A stretch of DNA of 64,000 nt, taken from positions 5,830,001 through 5,894,000 of the forward strand of contig NC_087250.1 of assembly GCF_037042905.1 (NCBI RefSeq), written 5' to 3'. The notes under the pieces are model-generated. The model saw only the letters and a program-made list of their open reading frames with translations, was not told the origin of the DNA and made no database searches. Each line of letters begins with the position of its first letter. The first letter of the stretch is position 1. This document shows, in pieces, positions 15,754-62,852 of this stretch. This stretch comes from Lytechinus pictus. Lineage: Eukaryota. The position numbers and the translations under genes were made by a program.

Positions 15754-16271
15754 AAAGTTATACGTGTACAACAGCTTTGGCAACTCTTTTATTTAAATAT
15801 TGTAAAGAAATGAATGAAGAGAACAATGGTAAGCGTAGCTTAAATCAAGGTTCCCAGAGCTATCTACCCTTTGGAAAAATTGGAGATGCCGAAAAAATGT
15901 ATCCACCGGGAATCGAACCCGGGCCCCCAGCTTTGAACGCCGGTGCCTTAAACACTAGACCACAGAGACGGGTTAGTGGCTAGGGCGACCCCGATCCGAT
16001 TGACCGTCACATAGACAGATTTTTCGGCACTATACCAATTATAATTTCCTTTGTCGGGTGAAGGTGGGTTTCGAACAATGACAAGCCGCCATGCTTTCAG
16101 CTGGATCAAAGCTATTGCTTTGATACAGTACACGTATGGGAGAAAGTATACAAATGTGTAAAGTAAAGCGGAGATATTTTTTCGGCATCACCAATTTTTC
16201 CAAAGGGTAGATAGCTCCGGGGAACCTTGATTTAAGCTACGCCTACCATTGTTCTCTTCATCCATTTCTTT

Positions 16272-16312
<41 letters not shown>

Positions 16313-27300: not shown

Positions 27301-30300
27301 CCCATAAGTTCGACAAGCACATCAGGACGTTTCCTTTTCTCGTGATAATTCCTCCCGAGGCTGCGTTCGATGTTAATGCACAGTATACCTACGAGTGTTC
27401 CACCCCCGTCGAGATAATACTCAAAGAAGACGATCTATACATGAAGATCGGTACCGATATGGCGACCTTTGTGTCAGTACCGCGTAAGTTTTGAATAATT
27501 CATTTTTATATTTCACAACAAAGCATAATAACATAATACAAAAAATACATTTCAAACAGTAGATTATGACAATCATGACAATGGCAGTTGTTAAAAGTGA
27601 AATATGAAGGAACCTACAAAACAACGCGGAGCCTGTAATTGAAATAAAATGAATTTATTTTCATACTTCACAACAAAACATAATGACATAATACAAAGAA
27701 AATACATTTGATACATACAGAATAGAGAAGATGATGACAATGGCAGTTAATAAAAAGTGAAATATGAAGGAACCTGCATAAAAAACAGAGCTTGTAATGT
27801 CTGCATGTTCCTTAAATCGTGCGCGAAATGTTATTGAAATGAATTGAATTTATTTTCATACTTCACAACAAAGCATAATGACATAATACAAACAAAAATG
27901 CATTTGATACATACAGAATAGAGAAGATGATGACAATGGCAGTTAATAAAAAGTGAAATATGAAGGAACCTGCATAAAAAACAGAGCTTGTAATGTCTGC
28001 ATGTTCCTTAAATCGTGCGCGAAATGTTATTGAAATGAATTGAATTTATTTTCATACTTCACAACAAAACATATAATAACAAAATAAATATACATTTGAT
28101 ACATACAGAATACAGAAGATGATGATAATGGCAGTTAATAAAAAGTGAAATATGAAGTAACCTGCATAAAAAGCAGAGCCTGTAATGTCTGCAGGTTCCT
28201 TAAATCGCGCGCCAAATGCTATCGCTGTACAGTCACATTGTTCTCATTCACTCATGTAAGTAAGTTTTGTAATTATACATGTATAATGAAACATGTTTAA
28301 ATAATGTATGTATATGTATAATCTTTTAGATAGTCATTACGGTCTGTTTTCTTTTTCAGGCTGTGCCATTCTCTCCTCCTTCAAATTTCTCTTCTTGTAT
28401 ATATTTCCATACTTGATACATTTTTTTTTCGTTCGTTTTTTCTCTCTTTCTTTTGCACTGTAAACAACTGAGAACACACTGTGAGCACACTGAGAACACA
28501 TTGAAAACACTGTGAACACACTATGAATACTCTTTGAACACACTGTGAACACAAAAATAACACATTTTGAGCACACTATGAGCACACTGTGAACACACTG
28601 AACAGACTGTGAACACAATGTGAACACACTATGAAAACATTGTGGACACACTGTGAAGACAAAATGAACACACTCTGAACACACTGTAAACACAATCTGA
28701 ACACGCTGTTAACACACTGAAAACACACTGTGAACACACTATGAATACTCTATGAACACACTGTGAACACAACAAATAACACATTGTGAACACACTATGA
28801 GCACACTGTGAACACACTAAACAGACTGTGAACACAATATGATCACACTATGAACATAATGTGAACATTGTGAACACACTGTATTCTTTCCAGTAGTTAA
28901 ATCGACAACCCTTGACATTTTTGTTTCCAATATACATAGTGTATGTTTATTCATTTTTATCCCTAGCTTTTACAGAACGTGTATCAATGACCTATAAAAT
29001 CATTTTGTGTTTTGCATTTTTAAGAACCGTTTGTAATAAAAAATACAGAAAATATCAGAGAATTTTTTAATTGATTTCATTTCACAGACAAATATTAGAT
29101 CAAAGTGATGTCCATGTTGTATTGGGTCGCGGATAACAGTTCTTCCCCATTGGAATTTTCTTCCATTTGATTATTTTTATCTGTTTTTTTGTGTGTGTAA
29201 TAATGAGCAGAATTCAACCTGCATGAATGCCCGGTTCTTCCTAAATTCCGTGAATTTTCATTACGCTTCTGTATTATTGAAAACCGGGCCGACTACTAGG
29301 CCTGTGTATTAATGTACAGATGAGAAAGAGAACGGGGCCTCCGGACCATCTTCCATCCCCTAAATTAAATTTAACAAAGAAAATGGAGAAAGAAATAAAA
29401 AATTAAAGGGAAAGAGTGAAATATTGTATATAATAGTCTGAATATTGTGTCAAGATCTATTACATTTATATATTAAAAAGGTCGGAATTATTTTTTTTCT
29501 TTTTAGAACTAGCCCTCACAAAAATGAACTGACCAATCAATATCAATGTTACACGGGCATTTGGTTTGAAATACTGACCAGGGACCAATCAGTGCTTTTA
29601 TTCATATTTGCATTTAATCGCAAACATTTGTAATAAGGAGCCCTGGCCTACAAATGTAACAGCAACATTCTATTTTTGTCTCGCCCACCAGAGGTGAAGG
29701 CGAGACTTAGGGATCCAAATGTCGTCCGTCCGTCACAAACCTAATGACACATATCTCCACAACCGTAAGTCGCTTTTCAACCAAACTTGGATGGTAGATG
29801 GACTTGGGGAACCTGCATGTTATGCTGCAGTCGGAGGTCACATGGTAAGGTCAAAGGTCATTTTCAGGTCAACATTAAAGTTTACGTGCAAGGATCTTAT
29901 GACAAGTGTTATTCCATCCCAGTCATTTCACAGTGAAGTTTCGATACAATTCTGTTGCGTGCCCTCGCAAATCGCAATATTTCTGGTTATTTTCATAAGT
30001 GGGCGAGACACAAAATCGCTTTTGCCTTGTTTTTACATATTTTTTTTTTTTCATTGTATTAGAAACTTTAACTCTGAACCGTTACAAAAGAATCGACGAA
30101 AATAATAAGGTCGGCGACGGGCCTGACGGGGGGATCCCAGTTGCCATTTCGACATCAACGCCGCCCTCCAACGTCGAGAGGGACGCCGAGCAGGGAAGCG
30201 ACGATTACGACCCAATGTGCGTCGAAGGCAACACCGAAGGTCCTTTAGGTGTAGTTGTAAGTTCTACTTCGTGTGAGCTCACACTAGATTAGAGCAACAT

Positions 30301-33300
30301 TAAGTCATTCGGTCGCCATTTTTTTTTGGCTTTCAATACAACCACTTCCAAACTTGTTACTTATCAGGCCAGAGTACCTTACACAAAGTCAGTTCATGCT
30401 ACATAAATGTGTTAAGCCCTACAAGTCTACCCGGCATCATCCAATTTTTGGGGTCTATTTTTTACCCCCTTTTTTCATCATTTTACATAGTGAATCAAAA
30501 TAACTTATTTTTTACAATGCCAGGCGATAATTGTATTTGATGATTCAAGTTGTATTTTTGTATTTACATTGCACGATTTGTATGTTTTTTGTTTTTTTTT
30601 GGCGGGGGGGGGGGCGAATAAGTCATAATAATAAGATGTTTTGAAATTTTCCTTACTCATTTCTTCGACTTTTAACTTGGACCCATGAATCAATAACTCG
30701 TTCTTTTTTTTCACCAACTCGTTTCAGCGAAGTACTAGTTTTACAACTTAACAACTCGTTCACTCAAGTTACTTAGTTTACATAACTCTCGACTTCCTAA
30801 CTCGTTCTCTCGATTTACTTACTCGCTCTCACGACTTACCAGCACGTTTTCCCGACTTACTAACTGGCTCTCCCGATTTACAAACTTGGTCTCCCAATTT
30901 CCTAACTCATTCTCTCCACTTTCTAACTCGTTCTTTCGACTTAACAACTCGTTCTCTCCACTTACTAACTCGTTATCATGGTTATCTCGACCTATATTGA
31001 CTCGTCCTCTTCTTACTTTACTTGTTCTCTCCACTTACCTAACTTGCTCTCTCGACTTTCCAACTCATTCTCTTGACTTGTTCTCTCGATTTACTTAACT
31101 CGCTCTCTCGACTCACTAACTCGTTATCTCGACCAACTGACTCGTTCTCTTGACTTACTTAACTTGTTCTCTCAATTTCATTACTCGTTCTCTTGACTTT
31201 AATACTAACTCGTTCACTCGACTTAGTAACTCATTCTCTCCATTAACTAACCGTTCTCCAAACTTTTGACTCGATCTAGACTCACTAATTCATTTTCTCG
31301 ACTTACTGATTCGTTCTCCCGACTTACACTAAAAAAAATTATTGGGTAAAAATGCTCCATGAGCATAATGAGTGTAATTATGTGTCCAACCAACATTGGC
31401 ATTTGATTTATCCAGTGTGATGAAAATTTTTCCCATTCTAACCTTACTGGACAATATGCTTCCCGCATTGGGTAAAATACTACCCCAAATTGGTAGGGCA
31501 CATAATTACCCTCGTGCTGGTTAAAATTTTACACAATATTTTTTACAGTGTACTACACTGTAAAAAAATGAAGTGCTAATTCAGGACTTACAGTGTTTGT
31601 ATAGTGACTGCACTACGAGTGCCGATTTTCTAGTTTAAATTTGAACTAGAAAATCAGCACTCGTATAGTGCAGTCACTTTACAAGCACTGTAAGTGCTAA
31701 CTTAGCACTTCATTTTTTACAGTGTACTATTTGTTCTTACAGGATTTACTGAGTTGCTTTCTTGACTTCCTAACTCGTTCCCGTGACGTACTAGTTCGGT
31801 CTCTCGACTTGCTAACTTGATCTTTCGATGTACTTTAATATTAAAGGTTTTTCCACCCTGGATGACGGAACCGGGCGAGATCCCACAGAATAACATGTTT
31901 TTCCTCACTAGTCTTGCTCCAAGAGGTGATGCTGTGTTCGAGGCTGCAAACACTACAGAAGGTATACCGAATTTATTGATGATGATGGTGGTGGTGGTGG
32001 TCATGATGATGATGATGATAATGATGATGATGGTGATGATGATGATTTTGATGAAGGTGACGATGATGGTGGTGGTGGTGATAATCATTATGATGAGGAT
32101 GATGGTGATGATGATTATGGAAGTGGTGATGATAATGATGACGGTGGTGATGATAATGATGACGGTGGTGATGATAACGATGACGGTGGTGATGATAATG
32201 ATGATTATGGTGGTGGTGATAATGATGGCGGAAATTATGATAATGATGGTGACGATGGTGATGATGAAGGTGTTGATGCTGATGACGGCGATAATGGTGA
32301 CATTGGCCATTAACATCCAATTCGTAGCATAACATGCATGGGGATAAGAAAAAAAAAATAATGATAATGAAAGGAGAGAATCCAACTTTGAACGTATAAT
32401 CTTCAGACAATACTTTGTTGATTAAATTAGAAGAAATGGAAGAAAAATTGAATAAAATTTATGATTTTGAAACAAAGGGCTTGATTACACGTTCCAGGGT
32501 AAAATGGATTGAAGAAGGAGAGAAAAGTACAAAATATTTCTGTAATTTAGAGAATAGGGGTTGGCATAAGAAAAATATTTCAAGGCTAAAAGATCATCAT
32601 GGTAATTTCATTACTGACCCGGTTGGAATTAAAAGAGAAATTCAAAGTTTTTATAGTAAATTATACTCCATCCAGGATGATGCTCAGGGGAACATAAATG
32701 AAAAAGATATAAATGAAAATATGTTTGATAACCTCAATATTCCACAACTACCTGATGATCAAAAACAACTTTTGGATGCTGGACTATCAAAACAAGAAAT
32801 TTTTAATGTCATTAAATCCATGAAATCAAATAAAACACCTGGTTTTGATGGGATACCTGCAGAATTTTATGTTGTTTTTTGGCCAGATATAAATGAAATG
32901 TTAATTAATTCTTTGAATTTCTCACTACAAAATGGCACTTTGTCTCCATCACAAAGAAATGGCATAATCACACTTCTTCCAAAGAAAGACAAAGATCCTC
33001 TCCTTATAAAAAATTATCGTCCAATTACATTATTGACAGTTGATTATAAAATTATTGCTAAATGCTTAGCTAATCGTCTCAAACGATGTTTAGATGATCT
33101 TATCAGTACTGATCAATCCGGTTTTATGAAAGGTAGGACTATTGGTCACAATATTCGCTTGATTCTTGACATAATTGAATACACTGACATGAAAGATATT
33201 CCTGGGTCTATAGTACTGTTAGATATTGAGAAAGCATTTGATAGTGTATCTCACAACTTTTTATTTCTTACATTGGAAAAGTTTAATTTCAGCAATTTTT

Positions 33301-39921: not shown

Positions 39922-41097
39922 CAGCGCGTCCCAAAAAAATGTCCCTCTGACATAGGACTGAATTAATTCTAAAATGTGGTAGGATTCTCAAATAAATGTT
40001 GATGAGTAGACAACTCTTTCGGATGGTGACGTTAAAGGTCGGTCCCAGACGTAAATAATCATATCTGATTGATACACGTCTGACAAAACTCAAATACACA
40101 CACACACACGCTCATTTCATGATCTAACTTCTATGAAAATTTCATTAGTCGCGCTTGAGCGGTTTTGAATACACACTCTGTTACGTAAAGGTGGTGCATT
40201 TTAGCCCATTCCAAGTTTGCAGCATTGATGCATTTCTTTATTGTCTATGGCATGTTAACCCCCATTTTTACATCCAGGATCTGAGCAGGGACATTTCCCG
40301 AATCATATCCAGGCTCATCAAAACATAAACTTGTGCATGATCAGAAGAACAAGAAACATAAAAAAATACGTTTGATTGATGGTTGATAAGGGGAACCAAT
40401 GCACCAACTTGAAAGAAAATGTGAATGATGGATGAGTAAAATAAGCTGAAAAAAGGGGGAATCCACAACTTTAAGTTAATCACCCTTTGCGAAAAGGAAC
40501 TTTACCAAAGAAAAAATTGACTTTTTTTCTTTTAAATAGTTACATTGTAATTAACTTGACCTCAGTAGGTTATTAACTAAAAAAAGTAATGAAAACAAAA
40601 ATGCAGTATTGTTGGAAATATGCATGAAACAGACATGACCTGTTGTCTCAATCATTGTGCATCTCCCGTTATTGAACTGTCAAATACCGTTTTTGCCCTT
40701 CTGAACTTGCTCAAGGTTGTGATTTGATGAGCCTGGTTAGATCATGGAGATTTCCCTGGTCAGATCAGGGAATTCCTTGGTCAGAACAAGGAGATAGAGG
40801 TGATATCTCCTTGGTCAGAATGGTCAAAGGGGGTTGATACGCGAGAAAGTGCAGAAAACAAAGCAGTGCACTGGTAGCTCTATGCTGCATGCATGCAAAC
40901 TTGGAATGGGCTGAAAAGCACCACTGTTACATAATGGGCTGTGTATTCAAAACCATTGAAGCAAGACCAATGAAATTTTTATAGACGTTAGAACATGAGA
41001 TGGGCTTCCTAGTTTTATACATTTCATTGAGAATCGTTTTTATTTTTTGAAGTAATTTAGCCGCATATCAGAGGGACATTTTTGGGGGGACGCGCTG
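39922..41097. mobile_element. Tc1/mariner-like non-autonomous element
   Basis: ta|cagcgcgtccc..atgtccctctga / tcagagggacat..gggacgcgctg|ta. Confidence 0.85.
40014..40109 (+). mobile_element. 5'-truncated copy of the 7SL-headed SINE
   Basis: Matches the reverse complement of 56476-56566 and has a (ca)n tail. Confidence 0.9.
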
Positions 41098-42339
41098 TAC
41101 ATTCATATCTCGAAATTTATTTGAACAAACATGCATTTTAGATGTTGACTTTGCTGGCTTTCCTTACTTGTGATTGGTCGGATCAATCGCAACTCTGTGT
41201 AAGACGGGGCCCTGATATCTCTAATGTCGCAGTCACATTTGCTTTATATACGGTGGCCGTACGGCGAGTCGAAAACAGCCGTTTCATGCATTTTCATTCA
41301 AACCACCTAGCTGGTATACAAACAATTTTAAACGGCTGTTTTTGACTCGCCGTAGGGGACATTACTCTGCAGGTACAGGCTTTTGGTTTTGGCAATTTGC
41401 ATAGAGCATAATTCAGAGTCTGAAGCAGGGAGACTAGTTACTAAATTTGCTATGTAGGGGTGGAGGCATTCTGCGGCTGCGTCGACAAAGACATAATTAT
41501 CATCTATCATTTTCTGAGCAATAGTTCTATCCCTCGCCTTGACTATACAAGGTGAAATAATGCAGTTGCAGAGAACAATTATTTCATGAGGAGGCTTTAA
41601 AGTCAAAGATTGTCACCATATAATCATAGATCTAGAACTTATCTTGTGAAATCATGAGACCTTATAGCTGAAAACTGACGAGATTTATGATCACTTACAC
41701 AAAAAGGCATATGTGGGACAGAGTAAATATTGCTTGGAAAAATATCCGACATTTGAACGAATCCTTGTTTCTTTGCTCATTCCTCAGCAATTAGGCCTAC
41801 ATGTTTTCTTCCTTAGCAATATGTCACATATTATATATTATAACATATAAACACTTGGGTGGTCTTTTCATTGGATTCTCCATTTTGCCCCAGCACTGGC
41901 ATAGTCTGCTATGCAGACTCTGAATGGCTCGTAAGGTGGGATCTCAGCGCACTAAGCGCGCTGCTGCTGGTTTGCGAAACCAGTCTAAAAGGGCGAGCGA
42001 AGCGAGCTATTTCAGCCACAGTAGACTTAGTCTGCTATGCAGACTCGTTGAATCAGCTGTGGTACACACTGCAGATGTGGGTCTACATTTGTAGACTAGC
42101 ACTAGGCTGGAGATATTTATATTTCAATAAATAGAGTAAAATTCACAACGCAAAATCAGGTGGGCTGATGATGTCACATCCCCCTTTCCTTTTTCTTATG
42201 CTATTACATGAAATCATAAATGTTTTATTATTTCACATTATTATGATGAAATAAGCTGCGGCAATAAAATCCATATAGTTATTGTTCGAAATGGACATGA
42301 AATGTAATACTCCGAAAATTTGCTTTGCCCAATTGATCG

Positions 42340-42458
42340 TGGGCCCGGCAGCCGCAACTTCCATCTTTTAACGTCTTTTGGTCTGACGCGGCGGGGGTTT
42401 GAAACCCCGACCTCCCAGTTGTGAGACGGACGCTCTACCAACTGAGCCAACACACCGG
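42340..42458 (-). mobile_element. tRNA-derived SINE 5' fragment
   Basis: Minus strand reads ggtgtgttggctcagttggtagagcgtccgtctcacaactgggaggtcggggtttcaaacccc. Confidence 0.75.
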
Positions 42459-45564: not shown

Positions 45565-47610
45565 TTAAGATTTGGAGGTGTCTCACGTTTTCATTTTTCG
45601 AAATTCGGGAGAAAGTTCGATTTTTTTCAGGAAAAGTCCGAAGTGGTAAAATTCCACGAATTTTTCGGGGGAATCGGAAAATCACCTAGGGGATGGATGT
45701 GTTGGCAGGAAGTGAATAGACCGAGCCATCCTCCTTGGCATACTTATGAAGATTGATGAAGAGAAGCAGTGCTTCGACTTTTGGACAGTGACTCTCGAGG
45801 GGTGAGCTGCTGCAATATTAAAAGCGTGTCAAACCGACATTGGCGACCAAGGAGGGGAGGAGGGGGGAGGGAGACTTCCAGACAACTCAAGAGGTGGTTT
45901 CAGGAAGAAGTGGCGATAGTGGCGGAGTGCTTTCCGCTGTAACCTAACAATATAATAGCAATATAATAGACGGGTCTTCTTTCCTTCTTTCATGTTTTGC
46001 TTTGTGTTCCTTGTCTTGTCTAGTAACCTGTGTGTCCCTGTTCTTTGTAACGTTCTCTGTTTTCGTCCTTGTCCAGTTCTGTTACCTTCTCCGAGCTCAG
46101 CTCTATTTTTTCTGTATCTATTATTAGCTATCAATGATTACACATTAATTATTTGTTAAGGGCCTATCCACAACAAGCTTTTGCTTTACTTAAGGTCCAT
46201 CCACTTGAATCTGCATTTATATTGTAATTATGCATACTATTTCGGAATGAGTTATATGCTTTTTGTAATTTGATTGATTTGTGGAAAATTAAATGAAATG
46301 AATGAATAAACAAGAAGTTCAAATACACTGGTACCAGCTCCAGCCCAAATCGAACATGGATACTATATTAGGGGCTAATAGAAGGTTTGAAGTTTGTGAA
46401 TCTTGCCTTGAATGGAAGGAGCCCTCTCGAGCAGCCAAGCATGTCTAACCTTTTCGCAACATTTTTGGTAAGGCATGTTACGTAGGTCAAAGTGTTGGTG
46501 ATGGTGACGCTAAGATACGCTTTGTTGGTTTTAAGGCTGAGTTCATGAAGTTGAGAGGAGAAAGATGGGTCTGATACTGGAATGAAAATTGCTTTCATTC
46601 TGACCCGCTTTTTTATCGATTTTATTGCGATCAGTAAGCTTTATTGCGCGCAGTAACCTCGATCCGTCTTTTGTGTAATCGATTCAAATATTTTCAATTC
46701 TTTACGTCTTGCGTTTCTTCTCTTTTTTGTCTTTAAAACTGTGTTACGGATACCAAATTTACGTCATTATTCATTTAAAAATAATGTCTATTATATTGAT
46801 TATATTTATCATATTCACATGATATTATCGTCACACGATCTAGTTATTTGTTACTTTTGTTTCAAGTACGCTATATATTAAAGGGATGCATGGTCCGAAA
46901 TGAAAATATTTACATCGAAATAAAAAGAGTAAATTTCACATCGAAATAAAAAGAGCAAATTTCACTTAGCAAAATATCTTACATGTACTAGTTTCCAAAG
47001 ACTAAATAGTGGACGAAACATTTTAATAAGACCTAAACCAACTGGTCCACAACGATTGATTGCAACAATATGTCACTTCTTTCTAATCGATTAAAGTTCA
47101 ATTCGATAGTGCTACCTATTTTTATAGTAGGAAGGGTCGATATCATTAATAACAATACAAATAGCTTCTTTTAATTGTTGTTTTTGTAACACGTTTATTA
47201 TTATTCAATTGTGACAACACAATTTAGAAAAAAAATTAAATTAATTTTAAATACTTATTTGAATTCATCACAACTGTTAATTTTTATTATTTTAATTGTT
47301 ATAATATATGATGCTTCCAATCATTTTCATATTCCTATTTCTAATTTAAATTTTAATTTTGGAGGAGGGATTATCTATTGTGTATAGATTTCCTTCATAT
47401 ATAATACTCTCGTCCTTTCAACAGTAATTATCAATTTTTAGGCGGCAGTGTTTGCTCCCAGACAATTTGGGAAACTAGACTTTTTTCAGGAAAAGTTAGA
47501 ATCGCCAAAATTCCAGGAAATTTCGGGGAATCCGAAAATTACAAAGGGGATGTATGTGCTGGCAGGAAGTGAATTCTACAGCCTTGTCGTCCTCCTTGGT
47601 ATATGATTAA

Positions 47611-48205
47611 AGGGGAATCCAGCCTTGGCCATAAAATGTTGTGTTGGGAAGGAGAAAAATAAATTAAACAGAATGGTGAAAGTTTGAAAGAAATCGGACA
47701 ACCAACAAGAAAGTTATAGCTGCTTTAAAATTGAGATCACTAGTACTTTGTAGATTTCAAATTGGCAACTGGGTAAGTAAATTATGACAAGGGGCAAGGA
47801 CAACTTTCCCATAGGCCATGTACTTTATTATCAGGGATTTGTGGTTTTCTCCTAAGTACCCATTCCCCTGGGGCAGTAATCTAAATATAACCCAAGTAGT
47901 ATATTGTTTTATGTCCTCATGAAAGAAAAATATAATTTGATATAAAACTTTTGGGAAAAATGACATTTTAGCCACATTATGTATTGGAGTACATGGAAGA
48001 GTAGTCCTTGCCTTACATCACTATGACATCCCATATGCGGCCAATTTGAAGTCTCCATGGGTATAGTGATTACCAATATTTACAACTTTTAAAAATTCAT
48101 AACTTTCTTGTTGTTTGTCCAATATTGTTCAAACTTTCACCTATCAGCTTGTCTGATTTTTCTTTTCCTTATAAAAACAAGTTTTTATATGGGTTGGATT
48201 CCCCT
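47611..48205. mobile_element. Kolobok-like MITE family 2
   Basis: TTAA duplication confirmed by the empty site atatgattaaggaaaag in sister repeat units. Confidence 0.95.
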
Positions 48206-51200
48206 TTAAGGAAAAGAAGAAATGTTCGACTTTTGGAAAGTGTCTCTGTACGGGTGGGAAGCTGCAGCAGAGCGTGTCAAACGGACTTTGGGGGGGGGGG
48301 GATTCCAGACAACTCAAGAGATGGTTTCAGGAAGAAGTGGCGATAGAAGGTACTGAGAGATGCATCATTAAGGTGCTTGAGTGGAGAAAGCCTAACCTTG
48401 AAAGGGTCTTCAATTCTCAGGAGGCGGATTGCTTTCCGCTGTAACCTAACAAGGCGTTCAAATACACTGGTACCAGCTCCAGCCCAAATCGAACATGGGT
48501 ACTATATTAGGGGGCTAATAGAAGCTTTGAAGATTGTGAATCTTGCCTTGAATAGAAGGAACCCTCTCGAGCAGCAGAGCATATCTTACCTTTTCGCAAC
48601 ATTTTTGGTAAGGCATGTTACGTAGGTCAAAGTGTTGGCGATGGTGACGCTAAGTAGGGTGATACGCTTTGTTGGTTTTAAGGCTGAGTTCATGAAGTTG
48701 AGAGGAGGAAGATGGGTCTGATACTGAATGATAATTGCTTTCATTCTGACCCGCTTTTTTATCGATTTTATTGCGATCAGTAAGCTTTATTGCGCGCAGT
48801 AACCTCGATCCGTCTTTTTTGTAATCGATTCAAATATTTTCAATTCTTTACGTCTTGCGTTTCTTCTCTTTTTTGTCTTTAAAACTGTGTTACGGATACC
48901 AAATTTACGTCATTATTCATTTAAAAATAATGTCTATTATATTGATTATATTTATCATATTCACATGATATTATCGTCACACGAACTAGTTATTTGTTAC
49001 TTTTGTTTCAAGTACGCTATATATTAAAGGGATGCATGGTCCGAAATTAAAATATTTACATCGAAATAAAAAGAGTAAATTACACATCGAAATAAAAAGA
49101 GCAAATTTCACTTAGCAAAAGATCTTACATGTACTAGTTTCCAAAGACTAAATAGTAGACGAAACATTTTAATAAGACCTAAACCAACTGGTCCACAACG
49201 ATTGATTGCAACAATATGTCACTTCTTTCTAATCGATTGAAAGTTCAATTCGATAGTGCTCCCTATTTCCATAGTAGGAAGGGTCGATATCATTAATAAC
49301 AATACAAATAGCTTCTTTTAATAGTTGTTTTTGTAACAAGTCCATTATTATTCAATTTTGACAACACAATTTAGAAAAAAAATTAAATTAATTTTAAATA
49401 CTTATTTGAATTCATCACAACTGTTATTTCTATTATTTTAATTGTAATAATTTTTGATGCTTCACAATATTTTTCATAAATTTAGTTTACTTTAAATTTT
49501 AATTTTAGAGGAGGGATTATCCATTGTGTATAGTTTTCCTTCATATATAATACTCTCGTCCTTTCATCAGTAATTATCAATTTTCAGGCGGCAGTGTTTG
49601 CTTCCAGACAATTTGGGAAACTAGACTTATTCAGGAAAAGTTAGAATTGCCAAAATTCCAGGAAATTTCGGGGAATCCGAAAATTACAAAGGGGATTGAT
49701 GTGCTGGCAGGAAGTGAATTCTACAGCCTTGCCGTCCTCCTTGGTATATGATTAAGGAAAAGAAGAAATGTTCGACTTTTGGACAGTGACTCTGTACGGG
49801 TGGGAAGCTGCAGCAGAGCGTGTCAAACGGACTTTGGGGGGCCAAGGAGGGGGGGGGGATTCCAGACAACTCAAGAGATGGTTTCAGGAAGAAGTGGCGA
49901 TAGAAGGTACTGAGAGATGCATCATTAAGGTGCTTGAGTGGAGAAAGCCTAACCTTGGAAGGATCTTCAATTCTCAGGAGGCGGAGTGCTTTCCCCTGTA
50001 ACCTAACAAGAAGTTCAAATACACTGGTACCAGCTCCAGCCCAAATCGAACATGGGTACTATATTAGGGGCGAATAGAAGCTTTGAAGATTGTGAATCTT
50101 GCCTTCAATGGAAGGAGCCCTCTCGAGCAGCCAAGCATGTCTAACCTTTTCGCAACATTTTTGGTAAGCCATGTTACGTAGGTCAAAGTGTTAGCAATGG
50201 TGACGCTCAGTAGGGTGATACGCTTTGTTGGTTTTAGGCTGAGTTCATGAAGTTGAGAGGAGGAAGATGGGTCTGATACTGGAATGAAAATTGCTTTCAT
50301 TCTGACCCGCTTTTTTATCGATTTTATTGCGATCAGTAAGCTTTATATTGCGCGCAGTAACCTCGATCCGTCTTTTGTGTAATCGTTTCCAATATTTTCA
50401 ATTCTTTACGTCTTGCGTTTCTTCTCTTTTTTGTCTTTAAAACTGTGTTACGGATACCAAATTTACGTCATTATTCATTTAAAAATAATGTATATTATAT
50501 TGATTATATTTATCATATTCACATGATATTATCGTCACACGAACTAGTTATTTGTTACTTTTGTTTCAAGTACGCTATATATTAAAGGGATGCATGGTCC
50601 GAAATGAAAATATTTACATCGAAATAAAAAGAGTAAATTTCACATCGAAATAAAAAGAGCAAATTTCACTTAGCAAAAGATCTTACATGTACAAGTTTCC
50701 AAAGACTAAATAGTAGACGAAACATTTTAATAAGACCTAAACCAACCGGTTCACAACGATTGATTGCAACAATATGTCACTTCTTTCTAATCGATTAAAG
50801 TTCAAATCGATAGTGCTCCCTATATTCATGGTAGGAAGGGTCGATATCATTAATAACAATACAAATAGCTTCTTTTGATAGTTGTTTTTGTAACAAGTCC
50901 ATTATTATTCAATTGTGACAACACAACTTAGAAAAAAAAAAAATTAATTTTTGTTACTTATTTGAATTTATCACAACTGTTAATTTTTATTATTTTATTG
51001 TTATAATATATGATGCTTCCAATTAATTTGATAATCTATTTACAACTTTATATTTTAATTTTGGAGGAGGAATTATCTATTGTGTATAGTTTTCCTTCAT
51101 ATATAATACTCTCGTCCTTTCAACAGTAATTATCAATTTTTAGGTGGCAGTGTTTGCTTCCAGACAATTTGGGAAACTAGACTCTTTCAGGAAAAGTTAG

Positions 51201-51309
51201 AATTGCCAAAATTCCAGGAAATTTCGGGGAATCCGAAAATTACAAAGGGGATGTATGTGCTGGCAGGAAGTGAATTCTACAGCCTTGCCGTCCGCCTTGG
51301 TATATGATT

Positions 51310-52573
51310 CCCGACCTTTCGTTTGAGGACGCGCACGCTTATTTACGACGGTAGTTGATTTTAAAAGAGACTTTTTGGGCCCGTCATCATGGTCGTAAAA
51401 TTCTGTCCTGCAATGCAAATTGTGTGACATGATATTTTTTTTTCGTTTCGCATCTGCGACGGAAACATTCAATATGCGTTTCGTGTGCAAAATTCTGGTT
51501 GCTACTATGGTAACAGCGATTTATCCGATTTAGGACGACTTTCCAAATCCACTTTTGGTTCCTCCCAGAGCTCGAGAAGCCGCCCGGGGGGCCCACTCCC
51601 ATTGAATAGTGGATACCAGGCGCGACCATACGTAAAAAGGGAAATAGTGGGTAAGTACGTTACGTATAGGCATATGTTGCATTATAAGTGTGTCAAAAAC
51701 GATGATTAAAATACTGAAAAACGGGATATATTTCCAATACTTGTAGGGTGTAACAACCCAAATACTTAAGAGATGCATTTTCATAATCTGGAAAAGACTT
51801 TCTTCCATTGTTTAGGGTGCTTTTCAAAACCCCATGGTCGCGCCTGGTATCCACTCATCAACGGAAGTGTACCCCCCGGGAAATCCCCCATTTCTGCGGA
51901 AAGTAAAACATACTGCCCATTACATTGTGTGCTAGAGGCATATCGTTTGTGTATAAGAGCAGGCAAATGAAGAAAACCCCGCAAATTTAGATGTTTTTCC
52001 AGACGGTTTATGGCCTATTGCATGATGTGTATATGTCAACGCATGCGAAAATGGTTCCGGCTGGAGAGGTGATCTGACTCATGGAATCAATTGCCAGTGA
52101 TCCACCAATAATGTACATTAAATGCAATATCGATTCGATGGACTGTAATGATCTATATCTAAGCCTTAATTCGGTAAGTTTTTCCTTACTCAATATGTAC
52201 TCGATTTGTCTGAAAAACCACTTTCTTATCCATGTCATAATCTACATTTCGCATGTCTCCAGCCAGCTGGAGTCATAGCCATGATACAGGTACAGTCCCG
52301 CCGCGAGCTCAGCCAGGCAAATGGCATGGCATGCTGGTATCATAGAGCTATTATAGCTCCATGCTAGTATCGTATGAAAGAGCTTTGCACACGAAAAGCA
52401 AGATCTATAGGGCCTGTAACACACAGCTCAGCAATGATTGTAGAACAGTTTTCTACGTTTGATTGTATTGACTGTAACGTACAATCAATCTGAAAATCGA
52501 GTCCATGATTAATTGTTAACTTTTGAGTTACCCGACTCTAATCTCGCGTTGTAGAGGATTGCGAAAGGTGCCT
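51310..52573. mobile_element. 1264-bp non-coding insertion in an array unit (copy 1)
   Basis: Absent from most units. Short subterminal IR acctttcg / cgaaaggt, att on both flanks, internal MITE at about 51582-51880. Confidence 0.75.
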
Positions 52574-54132
52574 ATTAAGGAAAAGAAGAAGTGTTCGACT
52601 TTTGAACAGTGACTCTGTACGGGTGGGAAGCTGCAGCAGAGCGTGTCAAACGGACTTTGGGGGGCCAAGGGGGGGGGGGGGGGTTCCAGACAACTCAAGA
52701 GATGGTTTCAGGAAGAAGTGGCGATAGAAGGTACTGAGAGATGCATCATTAATGTGCTTGAGTGGAGAAAGCCTAACCTTGGAAGGGTCTTCAATTCTCA
52801 GGAGGCGGAGTGCTTTCCGCTGTAACCTATTAAGAAGTATGAGTACACCGGTACCAGCTCCAGCCCAAAGCGAACATGGGTACTATATTAGGGGCTAATA
52901 GAAGGTTTGAAGATTGTGAATCTTGCCTTGAATAGAAGGAGCCCTCTCGAGCAGCCAAGCATGTCTAACCTTTTCGCAACATTTTTGGTAAGGCATGTTA
53001 CGTAGGTCAAAGTGTTAGCGATGGTGACGCTATAGGTTGATACGCTTTGTTGGTTTTAAGGCTGAGTTCATGAAGTTGAGAGGAGGAAGATGGGTCTGAT
53101 ACTGGAATGAACATTGCTTTCATTTTGACCCGCTTTTTTATCGATTTTATTGCGATCAGTAAGCTTTATTGCGCGCAGTAACCTCGATCCGTCTTTTGTG
53201 TAATCGATTCAAATATTTTCAATTCTTTATGTCTTGCGTTTCTTCTCTTTTTTGTCTTTAAAACTGTGTCACGGATACCAAATTTACGTCATTATTCATT
53301 TAAAAATAATGTCTATTATATTGATTATATTTATCATATTCACATGATATTATCGTCACACGAACTAGTTATTTGTTACTTTTGTTTCAAGTACGCTATA
53401 TATTAAAGGGATGCATGGTCCGAAATGAAAATATTTACATCGAAATAAAAAGAGTAAATTTCACATCGAAATAAAAAGAGCAAATTGCACTTAGCAAAAG
53501 ATCTTACATGTACTAGTTTCCAAAGACTAAATAGTAGACAAAACATTTTAATAAGACCTAAACCAACTGGTCCACAACGATTGATTACAACAATATGTCA
53601 CTTTTTTCTAATCGATTAAAGTTCAAATCGATAGTGCTCCCTATATTCATGGTAGGAAGGGTCGATATCATTAATAACAATACAAATAGCTTCTTTTGAT
53701 AGTTGTTTTTGTAACAAGTCCATTATTATTCAATTGTGACAACACAACTTAGAAAAAAAAAAAAAAATAATTTTTGTTACTTATTTGAATTTATCACAAC
53801 TGTTAATTTTTATTATTTTATTGTTATAATATATGATGCTTCCAATGAATTTGATAATCTATTTACAACTTTATATTTTAATTTTGGAGGAGGAATTATC
53901 TATTGTGTATAGTTTTCCTTCATATATAATACTCTCGTCCTTTCAACAGTAATTATCAATTTTTAGGTGGCAGTGTTTGCTTCCAGACAATTTGGGAAAC
54001 TAGACTCTTTCAGGAAAAGTTAGAATTGCCAAAATTCCAGGAAATTTCGGGGAATCCGAAAATTACAAAGGGGATGTATGTGCTGGCAGGAAGTGAATTC
54101 TACAGCCTTGCCGTCCGCCTTGGTATATGATT

Positions 54133-55396
54133 CCCGACCTTTCGTTTGAGGACGCGCACGCTTATTTACGACGGTAGTTGATTTTAAAAGAGACTTTTTG
54201 GGCCCGTCATCATGGTCGTAAAATTCTGTCCTGCAATGCAAATTGTGTGACATGATATTTTTTTTTCGTTTCGCATCTGCGACGGAAACATTCAATATGC
54301 GTTTCGTGTGCAAAATTCTGGTTGCTACTATGGTAACATCGATTTATCCGATTTAGGACGACTTTCCAAATCCACTTTTGGTTCCTCCCAGAGCTCGAGA
54401 AGCCGCCCGGGGGGCCCACTCCCATTGAATAGTGGATACCAGGCGCGACCATACGTAAAAAGGGAAATAGTGGGTAAGTACGTTACGTATAGGCATATGT
54501 TGCATTATAAGTGTGTCAAAAACGATGATTAAAATACTGAAAAACGGGATATATTTCCAATACTTGTAGGGTGTAACAACCCAAATACTTAAGAGATGCA
54601 TTTTCATAATCTGGAAAAGACTTTCTTCCATTGTTTAGGGTGCTTTTCAAAACCCCATGGTCGCGCCTGGTATCCACTCATCAACGGAAGTGTACCCCCC
54701 GGGAAATCCCCCATTTCTGCGGAAAGTAAAACATACTGCCCATTACATTGTGTGCTAGAGGCATATCGTTTGTGTATAAGAGCAGGCAAATGAAGAAAAC
54801 CCCGCAAATTTAGATGTTTTTCCAGACGGTTTATGGCCTATTGCATGATGTGTATATGTCAACGCATGCGAAAATGGTTCCGGCTGGAGAGGTGATCTGA
54901 CTCATGGAATCAATTGCCAGTGATCCACCAATAATGTACATTAAATGCAATATCGATTCGATGGACTGTAATGATCTATATCTAAGCCTTAATTCGGTAA
55001 GTTTTTCCTTACTCAATATGTACTCGATTTGTCTGAAAAACCACTTTCTTATCCATGTCATAATCTACATTTCGCATGTCTCCAGCCAGCTGGAGTCATA
55101 GCCATGATACAGGTACAGTCCCGCCGCGAGCTCAGCCAGGCAAATGGCATGGCATGCTGGTATCATAGAGCTATTATAGCTCCATGCTAGTATCGTATGA
55201 AAGAGCTTTGCACACGAAAAGCAAGATCTATAGGGCCTGTAACACACAGCTCAGCAATGATTGTAGAACAGTTTTCTACGTTTGATTGTATTGACTGTAA
55301 CGTACAATCAATCTGAAAATCGAGTCCATGATTAATTGTTAACTTTTGAGTTACCCGACTCTAATCTCGCGTTGTAGAGGATTGCGAAAGGTGCCT
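54133..55396. mobile_element. 1264-bp insertion (copy 2, duplicated together with its unit)
   Basis: Nearly identical to copy 1 at an offset of 2823 bp. Confidence 0.75.
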
Positions 55397-56475
55397 ATTA
55401 AGGAAAAGAAGAAGTGTTCGACTTTTGAACAGTGACTCTGTACGGGTGGGAAGCTGCAGCAGAGCGTGTCAAACGGACTTTGGGGGGCCAAGGGGGGGGG
55501 GGGGTTCCAGACAACTCAAGAGATGGTTTCAGGAAGAAGTGGCGATAGAAGGTACTGAGAGATGCATCATTAATGTGCTTGAGTGGAGAAAGCCTAACCT
55601 TGGAAGGGTCTTCAATTCTCAGGAGGCGGAGTGCTTTCCGCTGTAACCTATTAAGAAGTATGAGTACACCGGTACCAGCTCCAGCCCAAAGCGAACATGG
55701 GTACTATATTAGGGGCTAATAGAAGGTTTGAAGATTGTGAATCTTGCCTTGAATAGAAGGAGCCCTCTCGAGCAGCCAAGCATGTCTAACCTTTTCGCAA
55801 CATTTTTGGTAAGGCATGTTACGTAGGTCAAAGTGTTAGCGATGGTGACGCTATAGGTTGATACGCTTTGTTGGTTTTAAGGCTGAGTTCATGAAGTTGA
55901 GAGGAGGAAGATGGGTCTGATACTGGAATGAAAATTGCTTTCATTTTGACCCGCTTTTTTATCGATTTTATTGCGATCAGTAAGCTTTATTGCGCGCAGT
56001 AACCTCGATCCGTCTTTTGTGTAATCGATTCAAATATTTTCAATTCTTTATGTCTTGCGTTTCTTCTCTTTTTTGTCTTTAAAACTGTGTCACGGATACC
56101 AAATTTACGTCATTATTCATTTAAAAATAATGTCTATTATATTGATTATATTTATCATATTCACATGATATTATCGTCACACGAACTAGTTATTTGTTAC
56201 TTTTGTTTCAAGTACGCTATATATTAAAGGGATGCATGGTCCGAAATGAAAATATTTACATCGAAATAAAAAGAGTAAATTTCACATCGAAATAAAAAGA
56301 GCAAATTGCACTTAGCAAAAGATCTTACATGTACTAGTTTCCAAAGACTAAATAGTAGACAAAACATTTTAATAAGACCTAAACCAACTGGTCCACAACG
56401 ATTGATTACAACAATATGTCACTTTTTTCTAATCGATTAAAGTTCAATTCGATAGTGCTCCCTATTTCCAGAGTA

Positions 56476-56646
56476 TGTGTGTGTATTTGAGTTTTGTCAG
56501 ACGTGTATCAATCAGATATGATTATTTACGTCTGGGACCGACCTTTAACGTCACCATCCGAAAGACGTGACCAGGGCTCGAACCTCTGCATCAAATTGTA
56601 ACTTCCCCGCATAGCTTGGATTACAGGCGCACGCCACAACGCCCAG
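56476..56646 (-). mobile_element. SINE with a 7SL-RNA (Alu-domain)-like head and (ca)n tail
   Basis: Minus strand reads ctgggcgttgtggcgtgcgcctgtaatccaagctatgcgggga, then ggttcgagccc. Sister units show the empty site. Confidence 0.85.
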
Positions 56647-59509
56647 TAGGAAGGGTCGATATCATTAATAACAATACAAATAGCTTCTTTTAATAGTTGT
56701 ATTTGTAACAAGTCCATTATTATTCAATTGTGACAACACAACTTAGAAAAAAAAATTAAATTAATTTTCGTTACTTATTTGAATTTATCACAACTGTTAA
56801 TTTTTATTATTTTAATTGTTATAAATCATGATGCTTCACAATATTTTTCATAAATCTTGTTTACTTTAAATTTTAATTTAGGAGGAGAAATTATCTATTG
56901 TGCATAGTTTTCCTTCATATACAATACTCTCGTCCTTTCATGCAGTAATTATCAATTTTCAGGTGGCAGTGTTTGCTTCCAGACAATTTGGGAAAGTAGA
57001 CTTATTCAGGAAAAGTTAGAATTGCCAAAATTCCAGGAAATTTCGGGGAATCCGAAAATTACAAAGGGGATGTATGTGCTGGCAGGAAGTGAATTCTACA
57101 GCCTTGTCGTCCTCCTTGGGATATGATTAAGGAAAAGAAGAAATGTTCGACTTTTGGACAGTGTCTCTGTACGGGTGGGAAGCTGCAGCAGAGCGTGTCA
57201 AACGGACTTTGGGGGGGGGGGATTCCAGACAACTCAAGAGATGGTTTCAGGAAGAAGTGGCGATAGAAGGTACTGATATGAGAGATGCATCATTAAGGTG
57301 CTTGAGTGGAGAAAGCCTAACCTTGGAAGGGTCTTCATTTCTCAGGAGGCGGATTGCTTTCCGCTGTAACCTAACAAGGCGTTCAAATACACTGGTACCA
57401 GCTCCAGCCCAAAGCGAACATGGGTACTATATTAGGGGCTAATAGAAGCTTTGAAGATTGTGAATCTTGCCTTGAATAGAAGGAACCCTCTCGAGCAGCA
57501 GAGCATATCTTACCTTTTCGCAACATTTTTGGTAAGGCATGTTACGTAGGTCAAAGTGTTGGCGATGGTGACGCTAAGTAGGGTGATACGCTTTGTTGGT
57601 TTTAAGGCTGAGTTCATGAAGTTGAGAGGAGGAAGATGGGTCTGATACTGGAATGATAATTGCTTTCATTCTGACCCGCTTTTTTATCGATTTTATTGCG
57701 ATCAGTAAGCTTTATTGCGCGCAGTAACCTCGATCCGTCTTTTGTGTAATCGATTCAAATATTTTCAATTCTTTACGTCTTGCGTTTCTTCTCTTTTTTG
57801 TCTTTAAAACTGTGTTACGGATACCAAATTTACGTCATTATTCATTTAAAAATAATGTCTATTATATTGATTATATTTATCATATTCACATGATATTATC
57901 GTCACACGAACTAGTTATTTGTTACTTTTGTTTCAAGTACGCTATATATTAAAGGGATGCATGGTCCGAAATTAAAATATTTACATCGAAATAAAAAGAG
58001 TAAATTACACATCGAAATAAAAAGAGCAAATTTCACTTAGCAAAAGATCTTACATGTACTAGTTTCCAAAGACTAAATAGTAGACGAAACATTTTAATAA
58101 GACCTAAACCAACTGGTCCACAACGATTGATTGCAACAATATGTCACTTCTTTCTAATCGATTGAAAGTTCTATTCGATAGTGCTCCCTATTTCCATAGC
58201 AGGAAGGGTCGATATCATTAATAACAATACAAATAGCTTCTTTTAATAGTTGTTTTTGTAACAAGTCCATTATTATTCAATTTTGACAACACAATTTAGA
58301 AAAAAATTAAATTAATTTTAAATACTTATTTGAATTCATCACAACTGTTATTTTCTATTATTTTAATTGTAATAATTTTTGATGCTTCACAATATTTTTC
58401 ATAAATTTAGTTTACTTTAAATTTTAATTTTAGAGGAGGGATTATCCATTGTGTATAGTTTTCCTTCATATATAATACTCTCGTCCTTTCATCAGTAATT
58501 ATCAATTTTCAGGCGGCAGTGTTTGCTTCCAGACAATTTGGGAAACTAGACTTATTCAGGAAAAGTTAGAATTGCCAAAATTCCAGGAAATTTCGGGGAA
58601 TCCGAAAATTACAAAGGGGATTGATGTGCTGGCAGGAAGTGAATTCTACAGCCTTGCCGTCCTCCTTGGTATATGATTAAGGAAAAGAAGAAATGTTCGA
58701 CTTTTGGACAGTGACTCTGTACGGGTGGGAAGCTGCAGCAGAGCGTGTCAAACGGACTTTGGGGGGCCAAGGAGGGGGGGGGGGGATTCCAGACAACTCA
58801 AGAGATGGTTTCAGGAAGAAGTGGCGATAGAAGGTACTGAGAGATGCATCATTAAGGTGCTTGAGTGGAGAAAGCCTAACCTTGGAAGGATCTTCAATTC
58901 TCAGGAGGCGGAGTGCTTTCCCCTGTAACCTAACAAGAAGTTCAAATACACTGGTACCAGCTCCAGCCCAAATCGAACATGGGTACTATATTAGGGGCGA
59001 ATAGAAGCTTTGAAGATTGTGAATCTTGCCTTCAATGGAAGGAACCCTCTCGAGCAGCCAAGCATGTCTAACCTTTTCGCAACATTTTTGGTAAGGCATG
59101 TTACGTAGGTCAAAGTGTTGGCGATGGTGACGCTAAGTAGGGTGATACGCTTTGTTGGTTTTAAGGCTGAGTTTATGAAGTTGAGAGGAGGAAGATGGGT
59201 CTGATACTGGAATGAAAATTGTTTTCATTCTGACCCGCTTAGTAACGATTTTATTGCGATCAGTAAGATGTGTAATCGATTCAAATATTTCTAACGCATA
59301 AGACAGTGTAAAGAAAAGAAACACATTCTTTTATTTCTTTTGTTTTAAACACTGTGTTATGCATACAAAATTAACGTCATTATTTATCTAAAAATAGTTT
59401 CTATTATATTTATCATGTTCACATGGAATTATCGTCACACATACTAGTTATTTGTTACTTTTGTTTTAAGTATGCTATATATTAAGGGGATGGTCCGAAA
59501 TGAAAATAT

Positions 59510-60125
59510 GTATGTATGTGTGTGTATGTATGCGTGTGTACGGGTGTATTTGTATGTGTATATATGGGTGTATGGGTGTGTGTGTGTATGCATGTACGTA
59601 TATGCATACATATGTATATATGTGTTTGTATGTATGTGTAGACATAATATATATGCAGCAGATTAGCTTTGCATCCCTCTCCCTATCTCTATTTTTCTTT
59701 CTATATTCTAGGCAGTTGTCATCGTACTATTGTCCACCTCATGTTCTTGTGTTGTGTTGTGTCGTGTTATTGTCTTTGTCTCTGAATTTCGCAATCCTGT
59801 ATATAAGATTTGTTTTGCCCTTTTCGTTATCCTCATGTATTCCTTTACGTATATTTCAATATTCTTTGTATCTACAAGCTTTGCTTTTAAGTGGACCCCT
59901 CCATTCTTCTCATGATATATAATTATATTGATTTAATTATATCTAATTATATTGATTATATTAATTTAAACTTGACATGCATGTTAATTTATATTTGAAT
60001 CACGTATTGAATATGTATACCATTTATTCAATGTTGAATCTTGTTCATACTTTCGTTTAAATTGAATCAATTTATTTTGTACTTATTTGTGTTATGTTGA
60101 AGAATAAAAAATAAATTTAATTGAA
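59510..60125 (+). mobile_element. Probable retroelement 3' tail inserted in an array unit
   Basis: Flanked by the direct repeat tgaaaatat, ends in aataaa and (aattg)n, absent from other units. Confidence 0.6.
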
Positions 60126-62491: not shown

Positions 62492-62852
62492 TGAGGTTTG
62501 TGACTATCGCATACTGGAATGGAAGGAGATATGACTGGTCAGAAACCATAAACAGTAGCGACTGATTCATGCCAGACCAGCCCTGAATAGGCAACCTAAA
62601 TAGGCATTTGTTCACCAGTAGGTACGAGCTTTAAAGACAGACATTTTTCCCTACTTGTAATGTGCCTCATTTTCCTGTTCTTCTTTCTATAAATTTTGTT
62701 TTTGTTTTCTAAGCGCCTTGAGCATCTAATCATACTGAAAATCATGGTAATCTTTTAAAGGCTTAATCGTCATGGCCGTGGGTAGATGTGTGTGTGTGTG
62801 TTTGAGTTTTGTCAGACGTGTATCAATCAGTGTTATAACCCTTAGGCAGCAC

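What the first reader, a model, noticed from the sequence alone, without database searches (positions are those of the whole stretch)
56476..56646. SINE with a 7SL/Alu-like head in an invertebrate genome
The minus-strand 5' end (ctgggcgttgtggcgtgcgcctgtaatccaagctatgcgggga) closely resembles the 5' Alu domain of 7SL RNA (GCCGGGCGCGGTGGCGCGTGCCTGTAGTCCCAGCTACTCGGGAG). It is followed by a B-box-like ggttcgagccc, a body segment gtctttcggatggtgacgttaaa that from memory resembles the Deu/Nin SINE domain, and a (ca)n tail. Sister array units show the empty site (possible TSD agta). 5'-truncated copies at 40014-40109 and about 62786-62830 indicate an abundant retroposed family. 7SL-derived SINEs are rare and best known from primates and rodents, with a few reports in hagfish and lancelet.
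Basis: partly seen in the sequence, partly recalled or inferred. Interest (0 to 1): 0.7.

Follow-up and report, generated by a model that had tools for sequence, protein, structure and literature searches.

The report
Sea-urchin SINE with minimal 7SL head
This is a short, young jumping element, probably in a sea urchin, whose first ~48 bases look copied from signal-recognition-particle (7SL) RNA and are grafted onto an ordinary tRNA-type element, an origin otherwise reported only for Alu-like elements of a few vertebrates.

Summary
Observation confirmed. A ~170-bp insertion (minus strand, 56476-56647) sits in one of six close units of a tandem array; the five sisters show the empty site. Its first 48 nt match the 5' end of Rfam Metazoa_SRP (31.7 bits, E 1.7e-6, below the gathering score; 36 of 45 positions identical, closing helix kept through two double changes). 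No tRNA model fits there. The 3' strand of the Alu domain is absent. The B box comes from a tRNA-type head: two metagenome relatives share body and tail, carry a B box exactly 18 nt before the body as here, and have no 7SL match. Then follow the start of the Deu/Nin domain, a conserved stem-loop and (CA)n. Best reading: an independent 7SL-headed SINE cut down to about the 46-nt domain shown to suffice for Alu mobility. Not tested here: host 7SL gene, genome-wide copy number, partner LINE, Repbase/Dfam. The two other copies in the window lack the head, so they do not prove a 7SL-headed family. This scan noted the same family many times elsewhere in this genome (unchecked notes: several hundred to 1,500 copies). 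Ten literature searches found no invertebrate case.

The parts
56600..56647 (-). 7SL-like 5' Alu-domain head (48 nt), containing an A-box-like decamer at 56634-56643; the first three bases may belong to the target site
   Evidence: Rfam Metazoa_SRP model positions 1-45, 36 of 45 identical, counted by eye; A box 8 of 10 identical to the human 7SL A box printed in PMC7245038
56585..56599 (-). 15-nt linker of unclear origin
   Evidence: no identity to the SRP consensus; about 10 of 15 identical to part of the L002 head in one alignment, weak
56567..56584 (-). tRNA-type B box (56574-56584) and 7 following bases: 3' remnant of a tRNA-like head
   Evidence: B box starts 18 nt before the body in the window, in L001 (483/501) and in L002 (251/269); L001 aligns from the B box to the tail at 99 of 109
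56535..56571 (-). start of the Deu/Nin central domain (overlaps the head remnant by 5 nt)
   Evidence: 23 of 28 columns identical, by eye, to the first line of the AmnSINE1 Deu domain in Fig. S4 of PMC7245038, plus a shared GGTCC
56498..56534 (-). 13-pair 3' stem-loop, probable LINE-recognition element
   Evidence: z -4.9, 0 of 200 shuffles as stable; same fold in L001 (z -4.1) and L002 (z -2.8); 52 of 52 cells paired, no covariation
56476..56497 (-). A/C-rich spacer and (CA)n microsatellite tail (56476-56484)
   Evidence: (CA)n in L001, (AACC)n in L002
56645..56648 (-). 5' copy of the apparent 4-bp direct repeat
   Evidence: filled versus empty sites
56472..56475 (-). 3' copy of the apparent 4-bp direct repeat
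   Evidence: filled versus empty sites
40015..40109 (+). 5'-truncated copy: body, stem-loop and tail only
   Evidence: 92 of 93 identical; no direct repeat seen in its flanks
62787..62830 (-). 5'-truncated copy: 3' half of the stem-loop and tail only
   Evidence: 41 of 43 identical
46309..59512 (.). tandem array of ~1.55-kb units that hosts the insertion; empty sites near 47126, 49273, 50831, 53652, 58198
   Evidence: self-BLAST and flank alignments

Best explanation
A young non-autonomous retroposon (SINE) with a hybrid head. An ancestral tRNA-headed SINE with a short Deu/Nin body and a stem-loop + (CA)n tail lost its 5' tRNA half and gained the first ~45-48 nt of 7SL RNA, most likely by a template switch of reverse transcriptase (inferred). 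The 7SL piece supplies the A box and the tRNA remnant the B box, 49 nt apart, so RNA polymerase III can still transcribe it (inferred; no run of four T inside the element, first one ~110 nt downstream). The 3' stem-loop and microsatellite are recognised by a LINE of the stringent CR1/L2 kind, which copies it into new sites with little or no target duplication and frequent 5' truncation (inferred). The 7SL piece folds as the 5' Alu domain and probably binds SRP9/14, helping the RNA reach ribosomes making the LINE protein (inferred from Alu; least certain step). Shown here: the anatomy, the insertion, the shared body with differently headed relatives. Not shown: transcription, SRP9/14 binding, partner LINE, copy number of the 7SL-headed form.
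For: SRP match begins at model position 1 at the insertion boundary; closing 3-bp helix kept by two changes on both sides relative to the Rfam consensus; 13 of the 14 pairs of the three 5' helices carry no non-standard mark. No tRNA fit. Empty sites in 5 of 5 close sisters. Relatives L001 and L002 share body/tail at 88-91%, have the B box at the same 18-nt offset and no SRP match. Stem-loop conserved, with all 3 differences among the three elements in unpaired positions. In-window copies 95-99% identical. 14 of 24 listed runs, one organism, 6 studies, hold 9-12 of 14 sampled words of the element, so it is not a private assembly artefact. Named homologs of a neighbouring LINE protein are sea urchins at 52-57% identity, next named Ciona at 35%. 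A 46-nt 5' Alu domain binds SRP9/14 and suffices for retrotransposition in HeLa cells (PMC11760393, passages). Sea-urchin tRNA SINEs are listed with CR1/L2 partners (PMC3747384 table passage).
Against: Only one copy with the head was seen; the two others lack it. The SRP score is below Rfam's gathering score and the host 7SL gene was not available. One pair of the first helix is a U-U mismatch and loop 2 has three extra bases, which could weaken SRP9/14 binding in this copy. The heads of L001 and L002 are called tRNA-like from A/B-box motifs by eye only: neither Rfam nor relaxed ARAGORN scored them as tRNA. The stem-loop shows no covariation. No LINE with this tail was found. The first three letters of the SRP alignment coincide with target-site letters, so half of each compensatory change may be target-derived.
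Confidence: 0.8

Rival explanations
1. One-off chimeric retrocopy: during this single insertion the reverse transcriptase jumped from a tRNA-headed SINE RNA to 7SL RNA (as in U6-L1 chimeras), so no 7SL-headed family exists.
For: Both other copies in the window lack the head; both relatives fetched have other heads; template-switch chimeras of small RNAs are known (PMC4494074 passages). Runs holding most words could carry this same locus.
Against: The 15-nt linker matches neither the SRP consensus nor closely the relatives' heads, as expected of an older, evolved junction. Body, tail and B box give about half of the 31-mers, yet holders from 6 studies have 9-12 of 14 words (suggestive only). 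Earlier scan notes report the same design at many other places of this genome (unchecked, not counted as proof).
Confidence: 0.1
2. Real 7SL-headed family, but the 7SL piece works only as a new 5' end and A box; SRP9/14 binding plays no part, mobility rests on the 3' stem-loop alone. (A rival to the last step of the best explanation, not to the origin.)
For: Relatives with tRNA-like heads use the same tail without any 7SL piece. A U-U mismatch and a longer loop 2 in this copy. The 3' Alu strand, kept in all described SINE1, is missing.
Against: The piece ends where the 5' Alu domain closes, 45-48 nt, the size found sufficient for SRP9/14 binding (PMC11760393); an A box alone would need about 15 nt.
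Confidence: 0.35
3. The head is a drifted tRNA half or random GC-rich sequence that resembles 7SL by chance.
For: Score below gathering; sub-threshold matches of similar E-value arise by chance for hairpin families in this window; a tRNA-type B box follows.
Against: 36 of 45 identities in primary sequence from model position 1, at the insertion edge; no SRP match in 56,470 other bases; no tRNA fit, while two tRNA-like heads elsewhere in the window score 37 and 47 bits.
Confidence: 0.04
4. Vertebrate (human Alu) contamination or mis-assembly.
For: The head resembles the Alu 5' end.
Against: Similarity stops after 48 nt and runs into a non-Alu body shared with two other copies in the window and two marine metagenome contigs; clean empty sites; runs of 6 studies of one organism hold most words.
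Confidence: 0.01

Closest known systems
SINE1-1_EBu of the hagfish Eptatretus burgeri (PMC7245038; main text parts 1-3 of 4 and half of supplement 1 read)
   Same: Independent 7SL head put onto the 3' part of an older tRNA-headed SINE; non-L1 partner; microsatellite tail; young.
   Different: Hagfish element keeps 96 nt of the 5' and 44 nt of the 3' 7SL, forming the full Alu domain with 7SL's own B box, has RTE-derived tail and ~17-bp TSDs. Here only the 5' ~48 nt, a tRNA-type B box, a Deu/Nin body, and at most a 4-bp repeat; invertebrate host.
Alu/FLAM/B1 and shrew-mole Urop (PMC13023118, passages)
   Same: 5' end from the 7SL Alu domain, A box inside it.
   Different: They are 7SL with a central deletion, poly(A) tail, L1-driven. 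This one lacks the 3' 7SL segment and poly(A) and carries body and tail modules.
Tree-shrew Tu types II/III, whose leftmost unit is said to have a dual 7SL and tRNA origin (one sentence in PMC13023118)
   Same: A hybrid 7SL/tRNA head unit.
   Different: Multimeric, within the Euarchontoglires lineage; junction details not seen, so the likeness is untested.
DeuSINEs / Nin-DC SINEs, e.g. AmnSINE1, sea-urchin SINE2-3_SP, Nve-Nin-DC-SINE (PMC4824008, PMC4758252, PMC3747384, passages)
   Same: Start of the Deu/Nin domain; head replacement by another Pol III RNA with loss of part of the tRNA is described for 5S-headed Deu SINEs.
   Different: Only about 40-50 nt of the domain against 70-120 (Nin) or 330 (vertebrate Deu); listed heads are tRNA or 5S, not 7SL. 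SINE2-3_SP sequence not seen.
Engineered minimal Alu SA46/AY46 (PMC11760393, passages)
   Same: A ~46-nt 5' Alu domain without the 3' strand.
   Different: A laboratory construct with a Pol II promoter, poly(A) and L1 ORF2p; this would be a natural counterpart with another LINE.

Membership tests
SINE (SINEBase definition, PMC3531059) | short (<1 kb), interspersed, non-tandem | tested here: met
   ~170 bp; three copies at 40.0, 56.5 and 62.8 kb in both orientations with unrelated flanks; empty sites
SINE (SINEBase definition, PMC3531059) | [quoted passage not shown] | not testable with these tools
   no genome held; earlier notes claim several hundred to 1,500 copies, unchecked
SINE (SINEBase definition, PMC3531059) | at least 60% identity to tRNA, 5S or 7SL over at least 60 nt | tested here: inconclusive
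   80% over 45 model positions (48 nt) against the Rfam consensus, short of 60 nt; host 7SL and tRNAs not available; the hybrid head spans ~80 nt
SINE1 (5' part from 7SL RNA, PMC7245038) | 5' end derived from 7SL RNA | tested here: met
   Metazoa_SRP positions 1-45, E 1.7e-6, no tRNA fit; tested against the Rfam model, not the host gene
SINE1 (5' part from 7SL RNA, PMC7245038) | uniform chimeric structure among copies (not a set of retrocopies) | not testable with these tools
   only one headed copy in hand
SINE1 (5' part from 7SL RNA, PMC7245038) | internal Pol III promoter, A and B boxes | tested here: met
   A-box-like 8 of 10 to the human 7SL box; full match to GGTTCRANNCY; 49 nt apart; activity not tested
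Alu / B1 / Urop / SINE1-1_EBu type | 5' and 3' 7SL segments joined after a central deletion (complete Alu domain) | tested here: not met
   the stretch forced onto the model's 3' end has 4 of 14 pairs non-standard and is the B-box/body junction shared with L001 and L002
Alu / B1 / Urop | poly(A) tail and L1-type long TSD | tested here: not met
   (CA)n tail, at most a 4-bp repeat
SINE2 (tRNA head) | 5' end derived from a tRNA | tested here: not met
   no tRNA match by Rfam (E up to 10) or ARAGORN; only a B-box remnant. Note the same tools also miss the worn heads of L001/L002
DeuSINE / Nin-DC superfamily | central Deu/Nin domain (70-120 bp in invertebrates) | tested here: inconclusive
   23 of 28 columns match the start of the AmnSINE1 domain by eye, but likeness spans only ~40-50 nt; Nin consensus not seen
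stringent LINE-SINE pair (CR1/L2) | 3' tail shared with a LINE 3' end | tested here: inconclusive
   no match to LINEs in the window or in two collections that hold little animal DNA; stem-loop present

The most novel reading that the evidence does not exclude
The first 7SL-headed SINE family of an invertebrate, and a natural element pared down to the minimal ~46-nt SRP9/14-binding domain: it would show that the Alu ribosome-docking trick arose again outside vertebrates, needs no 3' Alu strand, and helps an RNA that is already recognised by a stringent CR1/L2-type LINE, with a tRNA-headed sister of the same body as a built-in control.
Probability: 0.4. Interest if true: 0.82.

Novelty: new variant of a known kind. 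Interest (0 to 1): 0.66.

Why it matters
A 2026 paper states that 7SL-derived SINEs are known only from supraprimates, hagfish and one shrew mole, and that all arose by a central deletion keeping both strands of the Alu domain (PMC13023118, passages). This element would add an invertebrate origin with another design: only the 5' domain, on a borrowed tRNA B box. Its size matches the 46-nt unit found sufficient in cell assays (PMC11760393). Because relatives carry the same body and tail under tRNA-like heads, it makes a standing question testable: does a 7SL head help a SINE through SRP9/14 and ribosome docking, or only as a promoter? Sea urchin embryos are easy to inject.

Tried and rejected
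No whole genome was held, so host 7SL and copy counts stayed open; read-level support for the locus and for other full-length copies was not obtained. Body motif: 2 hits in metagenome contigs, 0 in viral contigs, 0 in prokaryote genomes. Tail motif, to find the partner LINE: 0 in prokaryote genomes, 1 in viral contigs, rejected as a chance match in phage-like DNA. Rfam on the heads of L001 and L002: no tRNA match; a tRNA-like mascRNA model at E 1.5 for L001, nothing for L002; relaxed ARAGORN 0 of 2. Dating by the array failed: the flank on one side is 465 of 466 identical to an empty sister, the other only 92-94% to all five, so the unit is a mosaic. Covariation test of the stem-loop: no pair varies, uninformative. 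Look-alike stretches in other genomes of this scan: none. A recalled paper calling a lancelet SINE an Alu element was not held. SINEBase supplements, which hold the domain consensus sequences and sea-urchin SINEs, could not be read; they, Repbase and Dfam may bear on novelty.

Full report
Observation. The minus strand at 56476-56647 holds a ~170-bp insertion in one unit of a tandem array of ~1.55-kb units. Five of five close sister units, and two diverged ones, run straight across the site. A 4-bp direct repeat flanks the insertion, but the base after its 3' copy differs from all five sisters and its 5' copy overlaps the first three letters of the SRP alignment, so it is weak evidence of a target-site duplication. 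Two further copies, at 40015-40109 (92 of 93 identical) and 62787-62830 (41 of 43), are 5'-truncated and start downstream of the head. Fourteen of 24 listed sequencing runs, all of one organism and from 6 studies, hold 9-12 of the 14 sampled words; one may be the window's source.

The head. Rfam at gathering score finds nothing here. With E-values, Metazoa_SRP matches at 31.7 bits, E 1.7e-6 for 601 bases, from model position 1. By eye, 36 of the first 45 model positions are identical over 48 nt. The helix that closes the 5' Alu domain is kept through two changes on both sides relative to the consensus; one pair of the first helix is a mismatch and loop 2 has three extra bases. Identity stops after position 45. 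No tRNA model fits, whereas two tRNA-like heads elsewhere in the window score 47 and 37 bits. As a control, 56,470 other bases gave no SRP match among 15 matches with E up to 1, though 4 hairpin-family matches had E of 3e-6 to 2e-4; the case therefore rests on primary identity and on model start and insertion edge coinciding. The host 7SL gene could not be compared.

The rest. A scan of metagenome contigs with a body motif gave 2 loci. L001 aligns from the B box to the tail at 99 of 109, L002 at 83 of 94 with a 9-nt insertion. In all three the B box starts 18 nt before the body. Upstream, L001 and L002 have A-box-like motifs and no SRP match; I call these heads tRNA-like from motifs alone, since Rfam and relaxed ARAGORN did not score them. 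So the B box here is the remnant of the older head, and the stretch Rfam forces onto the 3' end of 7SL (4 of 14 pairs non-standard) is the B-box/body junction, not 7SL. The body start matches the first line of the AmnSINE1 Deu domain in 23 of 28 columns by eye (PMC7245038 Fig. S4), over only ~40-50 nt. A 13-pair stem-loop follows (z -4.9; -4.1 and -2.8 in the relatives); the three differences among the elements all lie in loops, but no pair covaries. The tail is (CA)n, (AACC)n in L002.

Host. The 927-aa LINE ORF at 32400-35183 has 419 homologs among 8000 candidates scored; of 120 listed, four name an organism: Strongylocentrotus purpuratus 57%, Diadema setosum 56%, D. antillarum 52%, Ciona 35%. 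A sea urchin is likely; a transposon protein is an imperfect marker.

How it works. Shown: anatomy, insertion, module sharing. Inferred: the 7SL piece replaced the 5' half of a tRNA head by template switching; A box (8 of 10 to the human 7SL box) and B box, 49 nt apart, form a Pol III promoter, with no four-T run inside the element; a stringent CR1/L2-type LINE reads the stem-loop and microsatellite, as listed for other sea-urchin SINEs (PMC3747384 table passage); the 5' Alu domain binds SRP9/14 and docks the RNA on ribosomes. The last step rests on PMC11760393 (passages), where a 46-nt 5' domain bound SRP9/14 and retrotransposed. I put the origin and family reading at 0.8, a promoter-only role of the head at about 0.35 within it, a one-off chimera at 0.1, chance or tRNA origin at 0.04, contamination at 0.01.

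Against. Only one headed copy was seen, so my own calls do not exclude a one-off chimera; about half of the 31-mers of the query lie in parts shared with tRNA-headed relatives, and the higher shares are suggestive only. No partner LINE was found. The age could not be bounded from the array.

Earlier notes. Before looking I gave 60% to a family and 30% to a one-off. The scan's notes show the same design at many other places in this genome (66 of 323 notes fit the first look-up, 8 shown) and claim several hundred to 1,500 copies and a match to the host 7SL gene. They are unchecked and I could not test them; they moved my odds and are listed as such. None came from another genome.

Comparison and novelty. 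It works like hagfish SINE1-1_EBu (7SL head on an older tRNA SINE, non-L1 partner; PMC7245038, parts 1-3 of 4 and part of supplement 1 read) and meets that paper's definition of SINE1 as far as testable, but is not of the Alu/B1/Urop/EBu design: the 3' 7SL segment is absent. PMC13023118 (2026, passages) knows 7SL SINEs only from supraprimates, hagfish and shrew mole, and mentions a dual 7SL/tRNA unit in tree-shrew Tu. Ten searches (listings and abstract starts, passages of PMC3531059, PMC4758252, PMC4824008, PMC4494074, PMC3899998, PMC2632668, PMC3747384) showed no invertebrate 7SL SINE. A lancelet claim is recalled and was not held; Repbase, Dfam, SINEBase supplements and most subscription papers were out of reach, so an existing database entry is possible.

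Verdict. Real; new variant of a known kind; interest 0.66.

Noticed in passing
window 42340-42456 (-): tRNA-like head (Rfam tRNA 37 bits) followed by ~30 nt resembling the Meta-domain consensus printed in PMC7245038 Fig. S4 (by eye): a truncated MetaSINE-like copy.
   Followed up: partly
window 15898-15969 (-): tRNA-like sequence (47 bits; ARAGORN labels it tRNA-SeC) followed by a run of T and, further on, (CA)n/(TA)n; probably a tRNA-derived repeat or pseudogene.
   Followed up: no
window 32400-35183 (+): 927-aa open frame of an L1/Tx1-like LINE ORF2; homologs carry PF00078, PF13966 and an endonuclease domain missing from this frame. No similarity to the SINE tail.
   Followed up: partly
window 16305-18299: Two overlapping frames (17021-18009, +) that look like the end of a Penelope-type RT/GIY-YIG protein (recalled motif, untested), between 482-bp inverted repeats 97% identical.
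   Followed up: no
window 46309-59512: The ~1.55-kb array unit contains what looks like a decayed LINE ORF2 3' end (frame 49684-50058, recalled motif); a 2.8-kb higher-order duplication is 98.7% identical; the SINE-bearing unit switches sister type within ~40 bp of the insertion.
   Followed up: partly
L001 86-445: A ~360-bp element with 17-bp terminal inverted repeats (16 of 17 matching) sits inside or against the 5' end of the relative's tRNA-like head.
   Followed up: partly
window 31577-31704, 25939-26026, 41236-41377: Palindromic hairpins that give sub-threshold Rfam matches; likely small inverted-repeat transposons.
   Followed up: no
window 22683-24193, 3731-4194, 27634-28222: Minisatellite arrays of 94, 59 and 196 bp.
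   Followed up: no
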